Of a DNA stretch of 64,000 nucleotides, positions 43,621 to 58,664 are shown one piece after another (positions within the stretch are counted from its first letter, which is position 1; each line of letters starts with the position of its first letter). Under the pieces are notes generated by a model. The model ran no database searches and had not been told where the DNA came from. It saw nothing but the letters and a program-made list of their open reading frames with translations. The DNA is from an uncultured Candidatus Saccharibacteria bacterium. Its GTDB lineage: Bacteria > Patescibacteriota > CPR2_A > CAYFQT01. The stretch is from contig CAYFQT010000024.1 in NCBI GenBank assembly GCA_964345445.1, positions 4,634 to 68,633 of the forward strand, in the 5' to 3' direction. Both the position numbers and the translations under genes were made by a program.

Positions 43621-44178
43621 ATGAAGACTTTTTTAAGTGGAATAATTATATTTTTTGCTGTGATTTTGCAAGTTACAATTTTGCCTAAAATAACTATTTG
43701 GGAAGTAATGCCTAATTTAATTCTTCTATTGATTGTTTGCCAAAGTGCAATTAAAGGATATAAAGAAGGAATGGTTTGGGCTTTCTCTTGTGGGCTTCTT
43801 TTGGATTTTTTCTCCAATGTATATTTTGGAATTTTCTCTTTAATTTTTTTGTTTATTGCTTTTATTGTTAGTTTTGTAACCAAAAAATTTTTGGGAAAGA
43901 TTGGTTTATTATCCATAATAATTATTTCTGTAATTTCTACTATAATGTTTGATTTTATTTTTCTCTCAGTTATAAAAATTAATGTTTTAAGTTCAGAAGT
44001 TATTTTGGATTTTATTCGTTCTACTTTTCCTGAGTATTTTATTCAAATAATATTTAAAGAAATAATCTTCAATGCTTTTCTAGCAATTATTGTTTATCTT
44101 TTATTGTTTAAATTTAATGATTGGTTAAAATATTATGAAGGTAGGGTTAGATTACCTGGTGATTTTTATCGAAGATAG
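43621..44178 (+). CDS. mreD: Rod-shape determining protein MreD-like polytopic membrane protein
   Basis: Small 5-TM protein following mreC. Assigned mainly by synteny. Confidence 0.6.
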   Translation: MKTFLSGIIIFFAVILQVTILPKITIWEVMPNLILLLIVCQSAIKGYKEGMVWAFSCGLLLDFFSNVYFGIFSLIFLFIAFIVSFVTKKFLGKIGLLSIIIISVISTIMFDFIFLSVIKINVLSSEVILDFIRSTFPEYFIQIIFKEIIFNAFLAIIVYLLLFKFNDWLKYYEGRVRLPGDFYRR

Positions 44179-44224
44179 TAATTTTTCGAATGAGATGAGA
44201 AAAATTCTACACCGGAGGTGCAAG

Positions 44225-46204
44225 ATGAAAAAAAATAACATTTTTGGAGAACATTACGAAGGTATTTCCAAAGATAATAAAAAAAGATTTATTGATGGAA
44301 ACATTGATAATTTAGAAGAAGACTGGACAGATGCATTAACACATTCAGATGAAGAAATGCCTGAAAGTGAAACAAAAGTTAGTTTTAGGAGCATCGTTTT
44401 CTTTCATCTGGTTATTTTTTTGATTTTTGTTTTTTTATCTTCTGGACTCTGGTATCTTCAAATTTTAAATGGAAAATATAATCTTTCTTTAGCTGAAGGT
44501 AATCGCATCCGTACAACAACCGTAAGAGCTAAAAGAGGAATAATCTATGATAGAAACAAAAAACAACTTACAGAGAATACCCCTAACTTTGAAATCAGTA
44601 TAGTTCCCGCAGATTTACCTAAGGATGAAAGCCAAAGAGATAATTTTTATAATAATCTAGCAGCAGTTTTAGGGATAGATCCCCAGGAAATTAAAAAAAT
44701 GGTAGAAGAAAAAGGATATGATACCTATGAACCTGTAATAATCAAAAAAGATGTAGACAGAGATACTAAGATGATGTTTGAGCTTAAACATAATCAGTTT
44801 TACCAGGCTCATTTATCTGAAAATCCTACCCGAGAATATACCGAAAAAAATATATTTTCCCATATTATTGGTTATATAAGTAGGATTGATGAGAAAGAAC
44901 TAGAAGAGAAAAGAAATTCTCCCGAAGAAGCTGATATTAATTATGCTTTGAATGATTATATTGGCAAAACTGGTTTAGAATATTCTTATGAATCTACATT
45001 ACATGGGAAAAATGGAAGAGAAAGGGTAGAAGTAGATGCAGATGGAAAAGTAATCAAGGTTCTAGCTTCAGAACCACCCCAGCCAGGAGAAAGTCTGGTC
45101 CTATCTATAGATTCTGATTTGCAAAAAGAAGTAACTAAATATTTACAAGAAGGAATTGCTAATGTTAGGTCAACTTCTGGGGCTGCTGTTGCTTTAAATC
45201 CTCAGACAGGGGAAGTTTTAGCTTCAGTTTCTCTGCCAGATTTTGATAATAATTTGTTTGCTAAAGGTATATTGCCTGAAGATTACCAGAGCCTACTTAT
45301 TGATTCTAAAAAACCTTTATTTAATAGAGTAATTTCTGGCACTTATCCTTCTGGATCCACTATTAAGCCAGTTGTTGGGGCTGCAGGTCTTCAGGAAGGA
45401 ATAATAAGTTCAGGTTCATATATTCACTGTCCAGGGGTGATTGAAGTTCCTAATCAATATAATCCGGAAATTATTTATAAATTTCCCTGTTGGAATTTAG
45501 CAGGGCATGGCTCAGTTGCTATAATTGATGCTATTGCCCAATCTTGTGATGTGTTTTTCTACACGGTAGGTGGAGGATATCAAGGAAGAAAGAGTTTGGG
45601 TTTAGAAAAACTTAGACATTATATGGCCCTTTTTGGACTGGGGGAGCAGACAGGTATTGATTTACCTAATGAAGATTCTGGGTTGGTTCCTTCCGAGGAA
45701 TGGAAAATAAATGCAAAGGGAGAAACTTGGTATCAAGGAGACACTTATCATATGTCTATAGGGCAAGGAGATCTCCTGGCTACCCCTTTACAAGTGGCAA
45801 ATTTCACAGCAACTGTTGCCAATGGTGGTAAATTATATAAACCTCAGGTTGTTCGTCAAATAATAGATGTAAATGGTCAGGTAACAAGAGATTTTACTCC
45901 TTTTGTAATTCGAGAAAATTTTATTTCTGAAAGTAACATTAATCTTGTTCGTCAAGGGATGCGCAAGGTAGTGACATCAGGCACTGCCAGGAGCTTAAAT
46001 TCCTTACCTGTTCCTGCAGCTGGAAAAACAGGTACAGCTGAATATGGATTTTATGGTGAAAAAAAGCATGCTTGGTTTACTTGCTTTGCTCCCTATGATA
46101 ATCCTCAAATTGCTTTAGTTGTTTTAATTGAAGGTGGGGGAGAGGGTCATGATGCTGCTGTTCCCGTAGCCGGTAAAATATTACAATATTATTTCACCCG
46201 TTGA
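44225..46204 (+). CDS. mrdA: Penicillin-binding protein 2 (elongation transpeptidase)
   Basis: Dimerisation domain YLQILNGKYNLSLAEGNRIRTTTVRAKRGIIYDRN. Transpeptidase motifs SGSTIKP (SxxK), SIGQGD and KTGTAE. ATG 44225 follows RBS ccggaggtg; the track start 44135 overlaps mreD. Confidence 0.85.
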   Translation: MKKNNIFGEHYEGISKDNKKRFIDGNIDNLEEDWTDALTHSDEEMPESETKVSFRSIVFFHLVIFLIFVFLSSGLWYLQILNGKYNLSLAEGNRIRTTTVRAKRGIIYDRNKKQLTENTPNFEISIVPADLPKDESQRDNFYNNLAAVLGIDPQEIKKMVEEKGYDTYEPVIIKKDVDRDTKMMFELKHNQFYQAHLSENPTREYTEKNIFSHIIGYISRIDEKELEEKRNSPEEADINYALNDYIGKTGLEYSYESTLHGKNGRERVEVDADGKVIKVLASEPPQPGESLVLSIDSDLQKEVTKYLQEGIANVRSTSGAAVALNPQTGEVLASVSLPDFDNNLFAKGILPEDYQSLLIDSKKPLFNRVISGTYPSGSTIKPVVGAAGLQEGIISSGSYIHCPGVIEVPNQYNPEIIYKFPCWNLAGHGSVAIIDAIAQSCDVFFYTVGGGYQGRKSLGLEKLRHYMALFGLGEQTGIDLPNEDSGLVPSEEWKINAKGETWYQGDTYHMSIGQGDLLATPLQVANFTATVANGGKLYKPQVVRQIIDVNGQVTRDFTPFVIRENFISESNINLVRQGMRKVVTSGTARSLNSLPVPAAGKTGTAEYGFYGEKKHAWFTCFAPYDNPQIALVVLIEGGGEGHDAAVPVAGKILQYYFTR

Positions 46205-46272
46205 TATAAATATCAAGGTTCAAAAATCAAAATTTAAAATGTAAAATATATATTTGATTTTTTAATAAAACT

Positions 46273-46301
46273 CTTGACATGTTTAAAAAAATTTGCTAAT
46301 A
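46273..46301 (+). promoter_or_regulatory. Sigma70-type promoter (TTGACA-17-TAATAT) with extended AACTCTTGACA box, driving the 46.3-47.65 kb ORF-free region
   Basis: aaactcTTGACAtgtttaaaaaaatttgcTAATATcag. Confidence 0.5.
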
Positions 46302-46309
46302 TCAGACCC

Positions 46310-47350
46310 TACTGACTAATTTTTGAAATTTGACAAAGAATTAATAGTTTGTTAATATATTTTTTACATAACGAACATTGAAAATTAATATATAAATGTC
46401 TTCCATTTTAATCTAGCGAGAGGCAAAAATTGCTGGCTCGAGGAATCGGATCTGGCTCAGTATCTGAGCCGGGCCGCATTTTGCGCTTGATTCTATTCGT
46501 ACTATTAAATCGCTGAAAAAGAGCCAGCTTTCCTACTAGCTATCTTCGCGTCAGTTGTCTATAGTTTTCAATTATGTATAGACAGTTGCATACATGCCCC
46601 AGTTAACTGGATATATAGAATTGCATGTATGAGCGTGGCGCGTCAATGATCTGTAGTTGTCAATTATGTACAGATGGTTGCATATATGCCCCGGAATATC
46701 CGGATAGGTAGAATTGCATATGTGAGCCCAAGCTAGTAGGAAATATGATGAGAGGGGAAGGGAGACTCTGTTCTGGAAGGAATAAAAGGGTTTTAGGCTA
46801 AATATTCAGGGAGAGTACTGTTCTCTTGACAGTTGCCAGGCATTATAGATCAAATGTTGAATCTCTTCTTGGGCATCTTTTTTACTTAGAAAAAATTTGA
46901 GTCTTGTTCAACCAGCCCAGAAGAACAAGATTTATACCCCTCTCATTACCTTTTTTGATTTCAGTTTGGACTGGGTGGTAAGTAAAATTATAGGAAAGGT
47001 GGCATAACCTCCTGAGATTTCAAAATTGGATATTTTTATTAAGCCACCCAGTCCACCAAAGTTGTACCTGGGGATTGTAAGTGATGGGTAGGGAAGTCCG
47101 AACTTCTCCATCCCCGATAATTTCGTCCGAAAGGACTAGGAAAAAGCGGACTAACCCAGGCACATACTTAGCAACAGATTTGTTTTTTGCAGCTTTATAT
47201 CTAAGGATATAAGGTGCTAGGGTGTAATTTACAAGCTGTTGCTGGACATTTCTTATTGTGATAAAATTCGCCGCGTGTAACACAGGGAGAAAGGGAATTT
47301 TGGAGATTTCCCTAGTGATTGAAAAAATTTTCCTTCTCTCTGGTCAACTC
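46310..47350 (+). ncRNA. Candidate large structured non-coding RNA or very long structured 5' leader (ORF-free, GC-elevated)
   Basis: No credible ORF over ~1.3 kb; local GC is well above the ~30% background. Immediately downstream of the consensus promoter. Many perfect hairpins: 46454-46470; the domain 46532-46740 with two covarying modules; 46903-46929; the 11-bp inverted repeat 46968-46978 / 47044-47054. Confidence 0.35.
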
Positions 47351-47424
47351 AACAGCAAAGATGTAGTGTTTTTGCACAACATTTCCCATCTTTGCTGTTT
47401 TTTAAATCTTCAATATTATCTTGT

Positions 47425-47470
47425 AAATATATAAAAGTATCGCGGTCGCGATAAAATAATATATTTTGAT
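47425..47470 (-). repeat. Third, inverted copy of the AT-flanked cgcg-core element (aaagtatcgcggtcgcgataaaataatatatttt)
   Basis: Near-identical to the reverse complement of copies A/B (one substitution in the core). Contains the quasi-palindrome ATCGCGgtCGCGAT. Confidence 0.7.
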
Positions 47471-47507
47471 ATTTTAAGTTATTGTTAAAAAGACAGTTTA
47501 ATGCTAT

Positions 47508-47654
47508 ACTTTTTAATAATGGAAACTCTGCGGGCAAATACCCGCATTTTCCCAAAGAAACTGTTTTCTTATTGTACCGAGAAAATTTTACCAAATTCTC
47601 CCATAGTTTATGCCAAGATTTTTATTCGGTACAGTATAAAAGGAGCATAGATTT
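47508..47654 (+). promoter_or_regulatory. Leader RNA element copy A (aaactctgcgggc...acccgcattttcccaaag...tgtaccgagaaaat...cggtacagtataaaaggagc) upstream of folD
   Basis: Homologous to 49276-49466. Stem gcggg/cccgc. Stem tgtaccgag/tcggtaca flanks the RBS. Confidence 0.45.
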
Positions 47655-48500
47655 ATGGCCGCTAAAATTTTAGATGGAAAAAAAATAGCAGAAAAAATTT
47701 TAAGCAAGGTAGGAAAAGAAACAGAGAATTTTAAAAAACAAGGAATTATTCCTTGCTTAGCTTGTATTCTAGTAGGCCAAAATCCTGCCTCCCAAATTTA
47801 TGTAAGAAATAAAAAAGAAGCTTGTGCTAAAACTGGGATAGTTTTTCGATTGTTTTCTTTTTCTGAAAATGTGACTGAAGAGGAAATTCTTGATAAAATA
47901 AGGGAATTTAATTTAGATAAATCAATTCATGGAATTATAGTTCAACTACCTTTACCAGAATATATTAATAACCAGAAAATTATAGAATCTATTTCACCCC
48001 AAAAAGATGTAGATGGATTTCATCCTCAAAATTGGGGAAAATTAGCCTATAATGAAAAAGGATTTGTCCCAGCTACTCCAGCAGGTATTTTAAGATTATT
48101 AGATGAATATAATATTTCACTAGCTGATAAATATGTTGTGGTTGTTGGTATGAGTAATATCGTGGGGAAACCTTTGGCTTTGCTTTGTCTGCAGAGAAAT
48201 GCTACAGTAACTGTTTGCCATAAAAAAACTAAAAATTTAAAAAATCATACCAGAGGTGCTGATATTTTGATTTCGGCAACCGGAGTTCCTAAATTAATTA
48301 AAAAAGATATGGTTGGTAAAGATGCCGTTGTGGTTGATGTAGGAATAAATAGAGTTGATGGTAAAATAACAGGCGATGTAGATTTTGATAATGTAAAAAA
48401 TATTGCCAGTTTTATAACTCCCGTACCTGGCGGAGTAGGACCAATGACAGTAACTATGCTTCTGGTAAATGTAATTTTTGCAATAAATAAAAATACTTGA
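47655..48500 (+). CDS. folD: Bifunctional methylene-THF dehydrogenase/methenyl-THF cyclohydrolase
   Basis: MAAKILDGKKIAEKIL...CLACILVGQNPASQIYVRNKKEACAKTGI...GIIVQLPLP are FolD signatures. Confidence 0.9.
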   Translation: MAAKILDGKKIAEKILSKVGKETENFKKQGIIPCLACILVGQNPASQIYVRNKKEACAKTGIVFRLFSFSENVTEEEILDKIREFNLDKSIHGIIVQLPLPEYINNQKIIESISPQKDVDGFHPQNWGKLAYNEKGFVPATPAGILRLLDEYNISLADKYVVVVGMSNIVGKPLALLCLQRNATVTVCHKKTKNLKNHTRGADILISATGVPKLIKKDMVGKDAVVVDVGINRVDGKITGDVDFDNVKNIASFITPVPGGVGPMTVTMLLVNVIFAINKNT

Positions 48501-49275: not shown

Positions 49276-49466
49276 AAACTCTGCGAGCATCTGCCCGCCA
49301 ATAACTTCCTGCCCGATCGTGCCTCGCAGTGGCAGGCGGGCATACCCGCATATTCCCGAAGATATAGTTTTCATACTGTACTGAGAAAACTAGCGCCAGA
49401 TTAGTCCCAAAAGCTTTGACTACGAGTTTTCTCTGGTACAGTATAGAAGCTAAAATAGGAAATTGA
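49276..49466 (+). promoter_or_regulatory. Leader RNA element copy B (longer, with ~35-nt insertion) upstream of the membrane protein gene
   Basis: aaactctgcgagcatctgcccgcc...ctcgcagtggcaggcgggcatacccgcatattcccgaag...actgtactgagaaaact...gagttttctctggtacagtatagaagc. Complementary stems ctgcgag/ctcgcag and ctgcccgcc/ggcgggcat. Confidence 0.45.
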
Positions 49467-50087
49467 ATGCTAAAGATATTATCAAAAAGCTTTCAAGTAT
49501 TTCTGCGGCTTAAAAAAATAATAATTTTGGTATTTTTATTATATATTTTTTCTTTTTTAGTTGGATATATTTTAGTAGGGGTATATAAGCTGGAATGGAT
49601 TTTAGAATATAGAGAAAATATAGTCCAAGATATTTTTCAAACAGGTCCTTTTAAACAGATTATTATTTTTTTATTTCAAGAAAAGTTTATATTATCAATT
49701 ATTTTGACTTTTGGTTATAATTTAATTATAGGAGCTTTCCTAACCACGACTTTAGTTGGAGTGGTATTTTTTATTCCACTTATTGTTACTGCATTAAGAG
49801 GTTGGATTTCCGGAATTATTTTTTTTGGAGTTTTTACTACTTTTGGAAGAACTGTCTTAGCTTTAGGAACTTTATTTTTAGAATTTCTAGCTTATTCTTT
49901 ATCCGCAGCCGGAGGTATACATATAGGGCTTTCTCTTATTAAACCCTGTCGATATAAAACAAAAAGGCGCATAAAAGGTTTAATTTTAGCATCTCTTGAT
50001 GTACTCTATTTATATTTATTTATTGTGATATTATTAGCATTGGGTGCAGTTTGGGAAATAATAGGAATTGTTTTATTAAATTTTTAA
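49467..50087 (+). CDS. Hypothetical polytopic membrane protein
   Basis: About 6 TM helices and no motif recognised. Preceded by the structured leader element at 49276-49466. Confidence 0.5.
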   Translation: MLKILSKSFQVFLRLKKIIILVFLLYIFSFLVGYILVGVYKLEWILEYRENIVQDIFQTGPFKQIIIFLFQEKFILSIILTFGYNLIIGAFLTTTLVGVVFFIPLIVTALRGWISGIIFFGVFTTFGRTVLALGTLFLEFLAYSLSAAGGIHIGLSLIKPCRYKTKRRIKGLILASLDVLYLYLFIVILLALGAVWEIIGIVLLNF

Positions 50088-50097
50088 GAGGAAAAAA

Positions 50098-51642
50098 ATG
50101 ACTTTTTGGGCAGATAAAATTGCTTTGGAAATTATTAAACAAAAAGGCAAAGAACAAAATATTGCCACGGGGATTACTCCTTCTGGACCTATTCATATTG
50201 GAAATATAAAAGAAGTGATTACAGCCTTTGCTATTTTAAAAGAATTGGAGGATCAAAAAGCAAAACCAAAACTGATTTATATTGCTGATGATTTTGATCC
50301 TTTACGCCGACTATATCCTTTTTTGCCTAAAAAATTTGCTCAACATGTGGGTAAACCTCTATTTTTAATTCCTGATCCTTTTGAATGCTGTGAAAATTAT
50401 GCCCAGCACTTTTTGAAGCCTTTTTTTGAGTCATTATCAGAGCTTAAAATTAAACCTCAGATTTTTTATGCCAGCGAGATGTATGAAGAAGGTTTATATA
50501 CGCCATATATTAAAGAAGTTTTATCTAATATCAATAGAATTAAAAAGATTATTGAGGAAGTTTCTGGGAGGAAAGTTAAAGAAGATTGGATTCCTTATAA
50601 TCCTCTATGTAAAAAATGTAATAAGATAACAGATACTAAAGTCACCAATATAAATTTAAATAAGAGTTATGTTCAGTATGAATGTGACTGTGGTTATTCT
50701 GGTAAAGCTGATTTAAAAAAAGCAGAGGGTAAATTGCCTTGGCGAATTGACTGGCCAGCCAGATGGAAGATTTTGAAAATAACAGCAGAGCCTTTTGGTA
50801 AAGACCATGCTGCCCCGGGCGGTTCCTATGATACCGGCCAAAAAATCTCTAAAGAGATTTTCTCTTTCTCCCCACCTTTTCCTGTTTTCTATGAATGGAT
50901 TTATTTAAAAGGGAAAGGCGCTATGTCTTCATCTCGCGGAGTATTTTTTGAAGCCAATGATTTTTTTTCTATTTTACCTCCTGAAATTTTAAAATATTTA
51001 ATTTTGAAAGTAAGACCAGAAAAACATATAACTTTTGATCCTTCTGAAGGGCTGGCAAATTTAGTTGATGAATTTGCTGAATTGGAGGAAAAATATTATA
51101 AAAAGAAGGAAAAATCCAAAAGAAGTAAGATTTACCAGTTAAGTCAAATTCAGATTAAAAAAAGAGTTCTACCTCCTGTTTCTTTTAGGCATTTAGTTAA
51201 TGCAACACAAGCAGCAAATGGCAAATTTGATGAAATGTGTAGAATTTTGGAAAGAACAGGTCATAAAAAGGCCACAAAAGATAAAAATTTGTTAAAAAAA
51301 CAAACAAGAAGAATAGAAAATTGGCTTAAAAATTATGCTCCTGATAATTTAAAATTTCAAGTTTCAAAAAATTTACCTGAACAAGTTAAAGATTTGAATA
51401 AAAAACAGAAGGAATTTTTAAAAAAATTAGCAGAAAGTTTTAAAAAGCAAAAATGGGAAGCGGAAAAACTGCATAACAAAATTTATGAGATATTGAAAGA
51501 TTTAAATCTAGAACCATCTTTGGCTTTTAGTGCTATATATATTTCTCTATTAGGTCAAGAAAGTGGTCCCAAAGCAGGGTGGTTCCTGACGGTTTTAGAT
51601 AAAGATTTTGTAGTTGAAAGATTCAAACGAGCCGCCAAATAA
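50098..51642 (+). CDS. lysK: Lysyl-tRNA synthetase, class I (LysK-type)
   Basis: GITPSGPIHIGNIKEV is the HIGH-type motif. GKGAMSSSRGV is the KMSSS variant typical of class I LysRS. About 514 aa. A central Cys cluster is present. Confidence 0.8.
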   Translation: MTFWADKIALEIIKQKGKEQNIATGITPSGPIHIGNIKEVITAFAILKELEDQKAKPKLIYIADDFDPLRRLYPFLPKKFAQHVGKPLFLIPDPFECCENYAQHFLKPFFESLSELKIKPQIFYASEMYEEGLYTPYIKEVLSNINRIKKIIEEVSGRKVKEDWIPYNPLCKKCNKITDTKVTNINLNKSYVQYECDCGYSGKADLKKAEGKLPWRIDWPARWKILKITAEPFGKDHAAPGGSYDTGQKISKEIFSFSPPFPVFYEWIYLKGKGAMSSSRGVFFEANDFFSILPPEILKYLILKVRPEKHITFDPSEGLANLVDEFAELEEKYYKKKEKSKRSKIYQLSQIQIKKRVLPPVSFRHLVNATQAANGKFDEMCRILERTGHKKATKDKNLLKKQTRRIENWLKNYAPDNLKFQVSKNLPEQVKDLNKKQKEFLKKLAESFKKQKWEAEKLHNKIYEILKDLNLEPSLAFSAIYISLLGQESGPKAGWFLTVLDKDFVVERFKRAAK

Positions 51643-51648
51643 ATAACT

Positions 51649-51677
51649 CTTGACAAGGATTATATATCTTTATAAAA
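51649..51677 (+). promoter_or_regulatory. Candidate promoter (AACTCTTGACA-17-TAAAAT) abutting the lysK terminator hairpin
   Basis: taactcTTGACAaggattatatatctttaTAAAATaaaacttgcc. Ambiguous because the terminator hairpin starts 4 nt downstream. Confidence 0.3.
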
Positions 51678-51680
51678 TAA

Positions 51681-51710
51681 AACTTGCCTTTAAAAATAGG
51701 CAAGTTTTTT
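51681..51710 (+). terminator. Rho-independent terminator after lysK
   Basis: aacttgcc tttaaaaata ggcaagtt tttttg. Confidence 0.5.
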
Positions 51711-52385
51711 GAAAATTGAATTTAATTATCCCAGGTAGGTGGCAAAAAAACAAGAACACTGCTCCTTATTCCTTTTCGGGGAAAAGGAGAGATGTTATCA
51801 TGTGTTCTATTGTGGCGCTCAAGTTTTAAAACCCTATTCTTTAGGATTAAAGAACAAGAGTGTACCACCAGCACTTATCTGGGATGCAATTTATGCCGCG
51901 GTAAAGTAAGAAGTGAAAGAGCGATAAATTGAAAAAAATAAGCCCAAAATAAAAGCGAAAGAGGGGATTTGAGGCTAGAAAATATTCAAAAAAACCTTCA
52001 CTTGTTTGCTTTTTTGCCGCGGCGCCAGCTTCCCCATGGTTAACAGAAGCATGGGTCTCGAAAACCAAGGGGAATGAATTGAATCTTGGGGAGGACAGTT
52101 AAAAAAGATGTGAGTAACTACCTCAAATGTGGATTAGATCTTTATTTGAGGTTATTATTGTCCTCCCCGCCAAGTTTGGAGAGAAGTAGTGTAAATTCCA
52201 CATTTTCCTCATGTTGTCCCTTGCAGCATGACCTCCTTTGGCTGTACTACATGAACCTCTCCTTTTTTCTTTTTACCCTTGATAATTGAGGGTATTTTTT
52301 TTATACTTATATTAGCACACAGCACACCTGCCTGCCGGCAGACAGGTAGCATATAGCCCAAGTCTAATTTCATTATGGAGTAATT

Positions 52386-56791: not shown

Positions 56792-56831
56792 ATATATAAA
56801 TATACCGCGACCGCGATAGAAATATATATTT
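56792..56831 (+). repeat. 40-bp direct repeat, copy A (atatataaatataccgcgaccgcgatagaaatatatattt)
   Basis: Identical to 57464-57503. GC core ccgcgaccgcg sits in pure AT context. Lies 40 bp upstream of the PaaX-like gene. Confidence 0.85.
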
Positions 56832-57425: not shown

Positions 57426-57463
57426 AAATTTTAAGAATATTATTAATATATAAAATATATAAA

Positions 57464-57503
57464 ATATATAAATATACCGCGACCGCGATAGAAATATATA
57501 TTT
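57464..57503 (+). repeat. 40-bp direct repeat, copy B
   Basis: Identical to copy A. Lies 39 bp downstream of the PaaX-like gene stop. Confidence 0.85.
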
Positions 57504-57696
57504 GAAATTTTTGAATTTACAACCAATTTTAGTTTTTTAAATTTATAAAGAATTTTTCTAAGATTTTTATCTGTTTGATAAAAATCTTTTTTTATATTTG
57601 AATAGGTTTTTTAAATTATATAACTTTTATATTAATTTTGGATAAGGGCTTGAAAACCCTTATAAATAGGCAAAAAAAAGTTTTTTAAAAAAACTC

Positions 57697-57725
57697 TTGA
57701 CAAGTGAAGAATAATTTGTTACAAT
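57697..57725 (+). promoter_or_regulatory. Consensus sigma70-type promoter (TTGACA-17-TACAAT) with extended AACTCTTGACA box
   Basis: aaaactcTTGACAagtgaagaataatttgtTACAATact, preceded by an A/T tract. Confidence 0.55.
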
Positions 57726-57731
57726 ACTATC

Positions 57732-58139
57732 TTCTAAATTAAAAATAAAATAATACAAAAACCCTTCTATGTTTCTGCGGACAAGAAAGCTTTGGAGGAC
57801 AGTCCCTAAACCAAAAATCAATTCAGGGCAAGCAGAAACAAAAAACAAAAACCAACAAAATACAGTTTTGAGTTTGAGTATTTAGTCTGAGTTTATTTAT
57901 ACTCATAGTTCCAACTCTAAGCTCAAAACTACACCGTTGGTTTTTTAATTTGCACATTAAATTTTTTATCTTGTTTTTATCTTATCTCGATCTTTATCGA
58001 GATGACGTGGGGGCGTTGAACTATGATCTGTAATTGGTCACTTGGATTATAGGGAGCCAGTAGTGAAACCGGCCACAAATTAGCTTTTAGCACTTAGCAC
58101 ATAGTGCTTAGCTAAAAGATATAAAGGCCGGTTTTTTTA
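57732..58139 (+). ncRNA. Candidate small/medium non-coding RNA transcribed from the 57697 promoter and ending at the 58068-58139 terminator
   Basis: No ORF. 5' stem gtttctgc...gcagaaac encloses ggac...gtcc. Hairpin atctcgatctttatcgagat. Terminal hairpin aaaccggcc...agcttttagcacttagcac atag tgcttagctaaaag...ggccggttttttt. Confidence 0.3.
58068..58139 (+). terminator. Long compound terminator hairpin
   Basis: aaccggcc ... ggccggtt plus a U7 run, with the inner perfect stem agcttttagcacttagcac / gtgcttagctaaaag. Confidence 0.5.
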
Positions 58140-58378
58140 TAACACGGATTAACGCGGATTGGTTACGGATAGACACGGATATTATATAGTGTGTAGAATT
58201 CTGCGTAGGTAATTTAGTCTGTCTACCGTCCTTGGCAGACTACAAATTTACCTATGCAGATTCCTATTCATTATATTAGTTCTTTGATATTTTAAAAATA
58301 AATATAAGGTAATCCTCGGGGGAACTTGAGGGCGAAAACTTGATTATAAAATATTGTAGTCAAATTTTCGTCCTTAAA

Positions 58379-58404
58379 GGGCCCCGCGAGGGGCCCTTTA
58401 TTTG
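58379..58404 (+). terminator. Rho-independent terminator (GC-clamp hairpin)
   Basis: gggcccc gcga ggggccc followed by tttattt. Confidence 0.55.
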
Positions 58405-58664
58405 GATTTTGTTGTTAAGGACGAAAAGGACGAAAATATCAAAAGATGAAAACTTTTTACCCTGATGCTCTCCAACTCTGGAGGAGCATTCTGGCCCAGA
58501 AGGGAAAAGTGGAAATCTTTTGTTAAGTTTTACTGTTTGGCTTCCGTATTTAATTTACGGAAATTTGATCCAGAGTCGAAATAGATGTTTTTGGTTCGAT
58601 GGTACAGTCCATCGAACTGTAGATCTAGTCGAAATTTCTGATTTAAAAGGAAGGAGTGAAGAAC

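What the first reader, a model, noticed from the sequence alone, without database searches (positions are those of the whole stretch)
46310..47350. About 1.3 kb ORF-free, GC-elevated, hairpin-dense region behind a consensus promoter: candidate novel large structured RNA
Between mrdA and folD there is no plausible ORF for ~1.35 kb, although the genome is otherwise gene-dense. GC rises clearly above the ~30% background, which is the usual signature of structural RNAs in AT-rich genomes. A textbook TTGACA-17-TAATAT promoter lies at 46273-46301. The region holds multiple perfect helices: ggctcag tat ctgagcc (46454-46470), cttgttc...gaacaag (46903-46929) and the 11-bp inverted repeat ggactgggtgg/ccacccagtcc (46968-46978 and 47044-47054), which encloses ~65 nt. 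It matches none of the large RNAs I can recognise from memory (rRNA, RNase P, tmRNA, SRP, group I/II intron signatures). The alternative is an unusually long structured 5' UTR regulating folD.
Basis: partly seen in the sequence, partly recalled or inferred. Interest (0 to 1): 0.8.

Follow-up and report, generated by a model that had tools for sequence, protein, structure and literature searches.

The report
Unclassified 1-kb structured RNA gene
Between two housekeeping genes of an uncultivated Patescibacteria (CPR) bacterium sits a self-contained gene for a highly folded non-coding RNA of about 1,040 nt; it matches no known RNA family, and its few sampled relatives share it with compensating base-pair changes.

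Summary
The 1,450 nt between mrdA/PBP2 (stop 46204) and folD (ATG 47655) have no ORF over 87 aa, no Pfam hit and no Rfam hit, even at E<=10. The region is a separate transcription unit on the + strand. It has two tandem near-consensus promoters (46274-46302, 46330-46358), a conserved leader, about 1.04 kb of GC-enriched RNA (40% vs 32%) and a 13-bp terminator hairpin with a U-run (47351-47405). folD has its own conserved promoter downstream, so this is not a folD 5' UTR. The + strand folds far better than shuffles (z -8.2; - strand -4.6; mrdA coding control -1.5). A relative (FolD 74% identical) carries a 1.45-kb version at the same site, and a closer one carries at least the 5' module. In helices whose register is fixed by invariant blocks, W vs B shows 15 double compensatory changes, 11 one-sided changes (all via G.U on the + strand) and 2 disruptions. 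W vs the third lineage adds 7 more doubles. Repeated +/-1 indels rule out a conserved reading frame. The best reading is a new, lineage-restricted, multi-domain structured ncRNA acting in trans. Its function is unknown. Only 2-3 homologues exist and there are no expression data.

The parts
46274..46302 (+). Promoter P1 (TTGACA-17-TAATAT, TG-extended); predicted start about 46309
   Evidence: The -35 and -10 blocks are invariant in relatives B (L008) and C (L013).
46330..46358 (+). Promoter P2 (TTGACA-17-TAATAT, TG-extended); predicted start about 46365
   Evidence: The block TGTTAATATATTT is invariant in B and C.
46364..46385 (+). Conserved 5' leader TTACATAACGAACATTGAAAAT, with a boxA-like core CUUUGAAAA in the relative
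   Evidence: Conserved in W, B and C and unique in the window. The boxA resemblance is from memory of Firmicute rrn leaders and was not tested.
46410..46424 (+). Invariant block AATCTAGCGAGAGGC (present in W and B, absent in C)
46432..46528 (+). 5' domain closed by helix GCUGGCU/AGCCAGC (46432-38/46522-28).
   Evidence: MFE. The hairpin shows 5 double compensatory changes against C. B has the equivalent closing helix GCUGGCUU/AAGCCGGC (read).
46529..46743 (+). Stem 46529-41/46731-43 (13 bp) enclosing two tandem copies of a ~92-nt two-hairpin unit (46545-46638 and 46637-46731)
   Evidence: D1, D2, I16. The stem has 2 double changes against C. The unit alignment W1/W2/C has 7 pairs with compensatory change. 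C has one unit and B has none.
46747..46947 (+). Core domain closed by helix 46747-57/46937-47.
   Evidence: 54 pairs, all paired in both sequences; 7 pairs changed on both sides against 0-1 in slid controls; 3 of 500 shuffles reach this.
46952..46970 (+). Invariant, mostly unpaired block UUUUUGAUUUCAGUUUGGA
   Evidence: A 19-nt exact match between W and B.
46968..47054 (+).
   Evidence: I20. B has GGAAUAGACGG/UCGUCUAUUCC at the same place, with 4 double changes and 1 one-sided change.
47055..47167 (+). Variable domain with two hairpins, including GUCC-GAAA-GGAC. It is about 90 nt longer in B.
   Evidence: The homology of the hairpin bases (GAUGG../..CCAUC and UUUCG../..GGAA) was read from the sequences and is an inference.
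47168..47245 (+). Domain closed by the invariant helix UUAGCAACAG/CUGUUGCUGG. It contains hairpin 47193-201/47206-14 and the invariant GCUAGGGUG.
   Evidence: The inner hairpin has 5 double changes against B.
47283..47342 (+). Long hairpin carrying the 21-nt invariant block GAGAUUUCCCUAGUGAUUGAA
   Evidence: 17 pairs, with 4 one-sided changes all via G.U and none broken.
47351..47405 (+). Intrinsic terminator: 13-bp stem, inner mini-hairpin, U-run
   Evidence: I17. It is conserved in B with C>U and A>G changes that keep pairing only on the + strand. A similar terminator precedes folD in lineage D, which lacks the RNA.

Best explanation
This is a stand-alone gene for a large (about 1,040-1,100 nt), multi-domain, stably folded non-coding RNA of a new family. 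So far it is found only in one small clade of Patescibacteria (CPR). Transcription starts at two tandem strong sigma-70-type promoters, passes a conserved leader, runs through several helix-closed domains and stops at an intrinsic terminator upstream of folD's own promoter. The RNA most likely acts in trans as a folded scaffold, either as a ribonucleoprotein or as an RNA-only assembly. Its invariant unpaired blocks would be the interaction or active surfaces, such as UUUUUGAUUUCAGUUUGGA, CCCUAGUGAUUGAA, GCUAGGGUG and the loop AACCAGCCCAGAA. Peripheral domains are dispensable and swappable: two copies of a tandem two-hairpin unit in this genome, one in a sister lineage, and other inserts in a third. 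Shown here: the gene boundaries by sequence signals, the absence of coding potential, the strand, the conserved helices with covariation, and the absence of any known-family match. Inferred: actual transcription and abundance, action in trans, the scaffold role, and the possibility that the boxA-like leader gives rRNA-style protection from premature termination.
For: There is no ORF over 87 aa and no Pfam hit. TGA is a genuine stop in this genome. Six +/-1 indels between invariant blocks destroy any common reading frame between W and B. No Rfam family matches at gathering scores or at E<=10, in W or in B. Two TG-extended TTGACA-17-TAATAT promoters are present, and the terminator is a 13-bp stem with a U-run. 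The folD promoter downstream lies in a 24-nt invariant block. Folding z-scores are -8.2 (+ strand), -4.6 (- strand) and -1.5 (coding control) in W, -5.6 in B, and -7.8 for the C module. Relative B (L008 = L009 = L016; FolD 74% and PBP2 79% identical) has a 1.7-kb gene-free gap at the same site, with 314 nt in collinear exact blocks. In fixed-register helices, W vs B shows 64 invariant pairs, 11 one-sided changes, 15 double compensatory changes and 2 broken pairs. Every one-sided change passes through G.U on the + strand. The tool count on 46740-46975 gives 7 double changes against 0-1 in slid controls. W vs C adds 7 double, 1 single and 2 broken, and the repeat unit has 7 covarying pairs. The neighbourhood is housekeeping and syntenic: uppS, rseP, proS, mreBCD, PBP2, then the RNA, then folD, greA, lysK, serS, hpf, secA. 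The RNA has no similarity to phage or plasmid records.
Against: Only two full-length copies and one partial copy exist, so no phylogenetically corrected covariation statistic (R-scape) is possible. I chose the helices that were counted. When the single-sequence MFE was mapped through a naive global alignment, it did no better than slid controls, because the variable regions misalign. There are no expression data. The distribution is patchy: the RNA is absent between PBP2 and folD in lineage D (PBP2 78% identical) and in the relatives at 54-61% identity. The middle third is not conserved between W and B. In C the 5' module is followed by an ORF whose RBS is sequestered in a helix, which looks cis-regulatory. 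Nothing indicates what the RNA binds or does.
Confidence: 0.65

Rival explanations
1. The 5' part (leader, 5' domain and two-hairpin units) is a cis-acting sensor or leader of the riboswitch or protein-binding kind, controlling what lies downstream. The rest is a long expression platform or an unrelated appended RNA.
For: In lineage C the same promoters, leader, 5' domain and one repeat unit are followed after about 130 nt by an ORF whose AGGAGGG ribosome-binding site pairs with an upstream UUUCCCUCC. The tandem duplication of the unit in W recalls tandem aptamers.
Against: In W and B no ORF follows. Instead there are 650-800 nt of conserved, covarying RNA and then a terminator. folD has its own promoter after that terminator. 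B lacks the repeat unit altogether. The unit occurs nowhere else in 143 kb of related sequence.
Confidence: 0.12
2. It is a relic or domesticated piece of a mobile or self-splicing RNA element (intron-like or ORF-carrying, as in group II introns or HEARO/omega RNAs) that inserted between PBP2 and folD.
For: The element is present or absent at one site among close relatives. Domains are modular, with large lineage-specific inserts. An ORF with a CxxC motif sits after the 5' module in C.
Against: No intron or omega-RNA model matches, even at E<=10. The flanking genes are intact and not interrupted. No reverse transcriptase, nuclease or transposase gene lies in the neighbourhood. The element has its own promoters and terminator. 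There is a single copy per locus, and no hit in phage, plasmid or viral collections.
Confidence: 0.08
3. It is non-functional DNA: a decayed gene or neutral spacer that happens to be GC-richer and to fold.
For: The distribution is patchy and the middle region is poorly conserved. CPR genomes in this window have other long intergenic stretches.
Against: Exact blocks of 14-21 nt survive at a divergence where FolD is only 74% identical. Of 28 variable helix positions, 26 keep pairing. Promoters and terminator are preserved. There is no protein similarity.
Confidence: 0.04
4. It is a very divergent form of a known housekeeping RNA, for example RNase P RNA, that the standard models cannot recognise in this lineage.
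For: W contains GGGAAGUCCGAAC (47093-47105), which resembles the RNase P CR-I motif GGAAAGUCCGG as I recall it.
Against: That motif is not conserved in B. No RNase P, tmRNA, SRP, 6S or rRNA model scores even at E<=10. ARAGORN finds no tmRNA. At 1.0-1.45 kb it is far larger than those RNAs.
Confidence: 0.03

Closest known systems
OLE RNA (ornate, large, extremophilic; ~600 nt, Firmicutes)
   Same: It is a stand-alone, large, multi-domain bacterial ncRNA with many conserved unpaired nucleotides flanked by covarying helices, embedded among housekeeping genes, and without an obvious function from sequence.
   Different: There is no sequence or structure match (Rfam scans). The phylum is different (CPR). 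The RNA is about 1.7-2.4 times longer. From memory, OLE is co-located with its partner gene oapA; here the neighbours are PBP2 and folD.
GOLLD and ROOL RNAs (large ornate RNAs that form RNA-only homo-oligomeric cages; PMC12286853)
   Same: The size class is similar (hundreds of nt to about 1 kb), the folding is ornate, peripheral domains are variable, and the function is unknown.
   Different: No covariance-model match was found. From memory, those RNAs are often in prophages or near tRNA genes. Here the locus is chromosomal and syntenic, there is no tRNA in 64 kb and no phage similarity. Multimerisation was not tested.
rRNA operon expression signals (tandem P1/P2 promoters plus a boxA antitermination leader)
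   Same: Two tandem near-consensus promoters are followed about 10 nt downstream by a conserved leader whose core, GAACUUUGAAAA, resembles the Firmicute or mycoplasma boxA GUUCUUUGAAAAC (from memory). The transcript is long and untranslated.
   Different: No rRNA follows. Two boxA positions differ. BoxB and boxC were not identified. Binding of NusB/S10 was not tested. The same -35 context, AACTCTTGACAAG, occurs at other promoters in the window, so the promoter type is not specific to this RNA.
Tandem-aptamer leaders (e.g. glycine riboswitch) and raiA-type mid-size ncRNAs
   Same: A structured two-hairpin unit with conserved loops is duplicated in tandem. In lineage C one unit sits upstream of an ORF.
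   Different: No Rfam match was found. The unit is missing in B. In W it lies inside a much larger RNA that ends at a terminator with no regulated ORF.

Membership tests
Any Rfam 15 family (incl. OLE, GOLLD, ROOL, HEARO, raiA, RNase P, tmRNA, SRP, 6S, rRNA, group I/II introns, T-box, riboswitches) | Covariance-model score at or above the family's gathering threshold | tested here: not met
   There is no hit in 46150-47700 at gathering scores. The best hits at E<=10 are chance-level: 23.6 bits against a 48-bit cutoff on the wrong strand, among others. The homologous region of B gives the same result.
Protein-coding gene or pseudogene | An ORF, or a reading frame conserved between relatives, or similarity to a protein family | tested here: not met
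   The longest ORFs are 87 aa in W and 64 aa in B, at non-homologous positions. There is no Pfam hit. Repeated +/-1 indels lie between invariant blocks. Treating UGA as sense is not justified, because TGA ends 5 of 30 genes.
5' UTR or riboswitch leader of folD | Continuous transcript into the regulated ORF, with the expression platform next to its RBS | tested here: not met
   The terminator at 47351-47405 and a separate conserved folD promoter at 47482-47510 lie between the RNA and folD. A related genome has PBP2 and folD only 107 nt apart with no such element.
OLE RNA | Genomic association with the partner gene oapA, in anaerobic or extremophilic Firmicutes (from memory) | tested here: not met
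   The neighbours are mreBCD-PBP2 and folD-greA. The organism is a Patescibacteria by its PBP2 homologues.
GOLLD / ROOL | Prophage or tRNA-adjacent context (from memory), and homo-oligomeric assembly | tested here: not met
   There is no tRNA in the window and no phage or viral similarity. The context criterion is not met. Oligomerisation cannot be tested with these tools.
rRNA-type antitermination leader (boxA) | boxA consensus shortly downstream of the promoter, bound by NusB/S10 | tested here: inconclusive
   The conserved leader GAAC(A/U)UUGA(A/U)AAU is present in W, B and C. The core CUUUGAAAA matches the Firmicute boxA as I recall it, but two upstream positions differ. No rrn operon of this organism was available for comparison.
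Group I / group II intron or other mobile RNA element | Interrupts a host gene or carries an RT or endonuclease ORF; catalytic core motifs present | tested here: not met
   The flanking genes are intact. No intron model hits. No RT or nuclease gene lies in the neighbourhood. The ORF fragment in C has no family match.
CRISPR / TIGR-type guide arrays | Three or more regularly spaced conserved repeats separated by variable spacers, next to an effector gene | tested here: not met
   There are only two abutting ~92-nt copies. They differ by compensatory stem changes, not by spacers. No cas/tas-like gene is in the neighbourhood.

The most novel reading that the evidence does not exclude
This is the first representative of a CPR-specific class of RNA larger than 1 kb, made from rRNA-style expression signals, that works as an RNA machine: a ribozyme or a self-assembling RNA or RNP scaffold. 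It may take over a task done by proteins in organisms with larger proteomes. At least two further conserved non-coding transcription units lie within the next 12 kb, so this clade may be unusually rich in large functional RNAs.
Probability: 0.25. Interest if true: 0.85.

Novelty: new member of a known kind. Interest (0 to 1): 0.6.

Why it matters
Bacterial structured RNAs longer than about 500 nt are very few: rRNAs, group II introns, OLE, GOLLD, ROOL and HEARO. Each has turned out to have unusual biology. Patescibacteria have tiny, gene-dense genomes, so spending 1.0-1.45 kb plus two strong promoters on a non-coding RNA implies a real cellular role. This locus gives a concrete candidate with defined ends, defined domains and a short list of invariant nucleotides to mutate. 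It also shows that the same genomes hold further conserved non-coding units. The practical limit is that the clade is uncultivated and sparsely sampled. The claim therefore rests on sequence signals and on two or three homologues.

Tried and rejected
(1) Rfam at gathering and at E<=10, on W and B, gave nothing credible.
(2) The genome-contig scan with FolD returned only distant genomes (41-54% identity) with no homologous RNA.
(4) Viral-contig scans with two RNA blocks gave 0 and 9 chance hits; nhmmer found nothing.
(5) blastn against phage and plasmid collections gave no match.
(6) I mapped the single-sequence MFE of W onto B through a global Needleman-Wunsch alignment. It gave 81 'broken' pairs and was no better than slid controls, because the non-homologous middle and the indel-rich regions misalign. 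I therefore used only helices whose register is fixed by adjacent invariant blocks, and I report this as a limitation.
(7) A homologue search with the 44-aa ORF fragment that follows the 5' module in C gave no candidates, and Pfam and NCBIfam gave nothing.
(8) A covariance model of the two-hairpin unit, searched over the window and 9 related loci, found no extra copies.
(9) Alternative genetic codes were rejected.
(10) I considered a DGR template/variable repeat pair for the tandem unit. The differences between the copies are not adenine-specific and are compensatory.
(11) The RNase P-like GGGAAGUCCGAAC is not conserved in B.
(12) The small coiled-coil protein found at this site in lineages C and D has no similarity to the RNA region by tblastn.
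(13) A possible kissing contact in W (loop UUUUCAAU with AUUGAAAA of the 3' hairpin) has no counterpart in B, so I dropped it.

Full report
OBSERVATION. I call the window's organism W. The stretch between the stop of a 689-aa PBP2/MrdA gene (44135-46204; Pfam PBP_dimer + Transpeptidase) and the ATG of FolD (47655-48500) is 1,450 nt. Its longest ORF is 87 aa on the minus strand. The five longest small ORFs have no Pfam hit at E<=0.1. The window ends 5 of 30 long genes in TGA, so the standard code applies and re-coding UGA is not justified. GC is 0.398 over 46365-47400, against 0.323 for the window, 0.175 and 0.28 for the AT-rich flanks and 0.31-0.35 for the neighbouring genes. That places it at the 98th percentile of 1-kb windows. 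The promoter is at 46274-46302, and a second, equally good TG-extended TTGACA-17-TAATAT promoter sits at 46330-46358. Folding is far beyond chance. 46405-47350 on the + strand gives -311 kcal/mol against -249 +/- 7.6 for dinucleotide shuffles (z -8.2). The - strand gives z -4.6, and an equal-length piece of mrdA gives z -1.5.

BOUNDARIES. A 13-bp perfect stem (47351-47363/47387-47399) with an inner mini-hairpin is followed by a U-run (I17). Downstream lies a separate TG-extended promoter, TTGTTA-17-TATACT (47482-47510). It falls inside a 24-nt block that is invariant in the closest full-length relative. The RNA is therefore its own transcription unit of about 1,041 nt from P2 or about 1,097 nt from P1. 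It is co-directional with all neighbours, and folD is expressed from its own promoter. This removes the '5' UTR of folD' alternative.

WHOSE GENOME. PBP2 homologues that carry names are from Patescibacteria (Portnoybacteria, Moranbacteria, 'Patescibacteria group') at 45-52% identity. The exact FolD protein is on an NCBI metagenome assembly (GCA_012974985.1; L007), whose sequence over the RNA is identical apart from scaffold Ns. Only four lineages of the clade are sampled in 5.8 billion proteins. They are W; C (L013, PBP2 87% identical); B (L008 = L009 = L016, PBP2 79%, FolD 74%); and D (L012/L014, PBP2 78%, FolD 76%).

COMPARATIVE ANATOMY. B has the same gene order: uppS, rseP, proS, mreB, mreC, mreD, PBP2, a gap, folD, greA, a 205-aa protein, class-I lysRS, serS, hpf, secA. 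Its gap is 1,703 nt with no ORF over 64 aa. W and B share 314 nt in collinear exact blocks of 8 nt or more. These include both promoters, the leader TTACATAACGAAC-TTGAAAAT, AATCTAGCGAGAGGC, TGAGAGGGG, TTTTTGATTTCAGTTTGGA (19 nt), TTAGCAACAGATTT, GCTAGGGTG, CTGTTGCTGGACAT, GAGATTTCCCTAGTGATTGAA (21 nt) and the terminator. Six +/-1 length differences between neighbouring blocks exclude a shared reading frame. B carries about 290 extra nt after GAGAGGC, a different ~250-nt domain where W has its tandem unit, and about 110 extra nt in the 47055-47167 domain. C has PBP2, an 84-aa coiled-coil gene, then both promoters, the leader, the 5' domain and the stem with one copy of the two-hairpin unit. After that comes a ~130-nt AT-rich hairpin that sequesters an AGGAGGG RBS, and then an ORF (MGTYDFLKGPCPVCGEDI...) that runs off the contig. 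D has PBP2, the small gene, a terminator resembling the RNA's terminator and then folD, with no large RNA. More distant relatives have PBP2 and folD 107 nt apart, or other genes after PBP2. The RNA is thus lineage-restricted and modular, and it sits in a stable housekeeping neighbourhood.

STRUCTURE AND COVARIATION. I counted only helices whose register is fixed by adjacent invariant blocks. For W vs B there are 64 invariant pairs, 11 one-sided changes, 15 double compensatory changes and 2 disruptions.
- The hairpin GGACUGGGUGG/CCACCCAGUCC becomes GGAAUAGACGG/UCGUCUAUUCC, with 4 doubles.
- The hairpin 46898-909/46923-34, with its conserved loop, has 3 doubles.
- The hairpin 47193-201/47206-14 has 5 doubles.
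- The domain-closing helix 46747-57/46937-47 has 1 double.
The long 3' hairpin 47283-47342 adds 4 one-sided changes and no break. Every one-sided change goes through G.U on the + strand and would be A.C on the other strand, which fixes the functional strand. The tool's own count for 46740-46975 gives 54 pairs, 100% paired, with 7 pairs changed on both sides. Slid controls give 0-1, and 3 of 500 shuffles reach the observed values. W vs C adds 7 doubles, 1 single and 2 breaks. The three copies of the two-hairpin unit (W1, W2, C) show 7 covarying pairs and conserved loops GUUUUCAAUUAUG and UAGAAUU. Under random substitution I estimate, from first principles and not by simulation, that a third or fewer of changed pairs would stay canonical. 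Here 26 of 28 do for W vs B.

Caveats apply. I selected the helices. There are only two or three sequences. A naive global-alignment transfer of the W MFE to B was no better than slid controls, because the variable regions misalign.

WHAT IT IS NOT. No Rfam family matches, including OLE, GOLLD, ROOL, HEARO, raiA, RNase P, tmRNA, SRP, 6S, rRNA, introns, T-box and riboswitches. There is no tRNA or tmRNA. There is no phage, plasmid or viral similarity. The tandem unit is not a CRISPR/TIGR-type array or a DGR repeat pair. The region is not related to the small protein gene that occupies this site in C and D. Literature searches for large ncRNAs in Patescibacteria found nothing relevant.

HOW IT PROBABLY WORKS. 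The shown steps are the sequence signals for strong, independent transcription and termination; a multi-domain fold conserved by compensation; and invariant unpaired blocks. The rest is inferred. The RNA is probably abundant and acts in trans as a folded scaffold (RNP or RNA-only assembly), with the invariant single-stranded blocks as its functional surface and the peripheral domains as decoration. The conserved leader GAAC(A/U)UUGA(A/U)AAU sits just after the start site. Its core resembles the boxA of Firmicute and mycoplasma rrn operons as I remember it. If that holds, it would recruit Nus factors and protect a long untranslated transcript from premature termination. This is untested. The main rival is that the 5' module is a cis-acting sensor, as its position before an RBS-sequestering hairpin and an ORF in C suggests. 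That reading cannot explain the conserved 650-800-nt 3' part that ends at a terminator in W and B.

VERDICT. This is a credible new family of large structured ncRNA, restricted as far as can be seen to one small CPR clade. Its function is unknown. I file it as a new member of the loose kind 'large ornate bacterial ncRNAs', not as a member of any known family. Interest is 0.6. The find is unusual and well delimited, but it rests on very few homologues and has no expression evidence.

Noticed in passing
window 51643-52385 (homologous to L008 13868-14540): A second conserved non-coding unit lies between class-I lysRS and serS. It has a TTGACA-17-TAAAAT promoter at 51650-51678, about 620 nt of RNA with fold z-score -7.3, and a terminator at 52274-52294 with a U-run. 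It is 72% identical over 706 nt to lineage B, with 6 compensatory pairs. No Rfam hit at E<=1, so it is not a recognisable T-box.
   Followed up: partly
window 57426-58655 (homologous to L008 18961-20018): A third long non-coding stretch (1.2 kb) has a TG-extended TTGACA-17-TACAAT promoter at 57697-57725, a c-di-GMP-II riboswitch at 58000-58083 (69.9 bits) and several terminator-like hairpins. It is 67% identical over 1,149 nt to B, yet the Rfam gathering scan of B reported no c-di-GMP-II aptamer.
   Followed up: partly
window 47530-47642 and 49336-49449: A ~115-nt element is present twice at 73% identity: once between the folD promoter and the folD RBS, and once in front of the unannotated 206-aa ORF (49467-50087). 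It contains a GUACCGAG...UUCGGUAC-type long hairpin. It is absent upstream of folD in lineage B and has no Rfam hit. It is a possible shared cis-regulatory leader.
   Followed up: no
window 47438-47453, 56803-56818, 57475-57490: A 16-nt palindrome, TATCGCGGTCGCGATA (or ...GCGGTA), recurs in AT-rich intergenic DNA, each time embedded in AAATATATA-type sequence. It may be an operator or a REP-like element.
   Followed up: no
L013 2791-3045 and 3666-3797; L014 2048-2240: In lineages C and D an 84-aa coiled-coil gene with no family match lies at this locus between PBP2 and folD. W and B have no such gene, and in them the large RNA lies directly downstream of PBP2. In C the RNA's 5' module is followed by an orphan ORF with a CPVCG zinc-ribbon-like motif that has no homologue among 5.8 billion proteins.
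   Followed up: partly
window 46271, 51645, 57692; L013 2726; L014 1985: Several strong promoters share the extended -35 context (A)ACTCTTGACAAG / TCTTGACAAGGTT. The resemblance between the RNA's P1 and other promoters is therefore organism-wide rather than RNA-specific.
   Followed up: no
window 50098-51642: The lysyl-tRNA synthetase next to this region is the class-I type (Pfam tRNA-synt_1f in the orthologue of lineage B), which is uncommon in bacteria.
   Followed up: no
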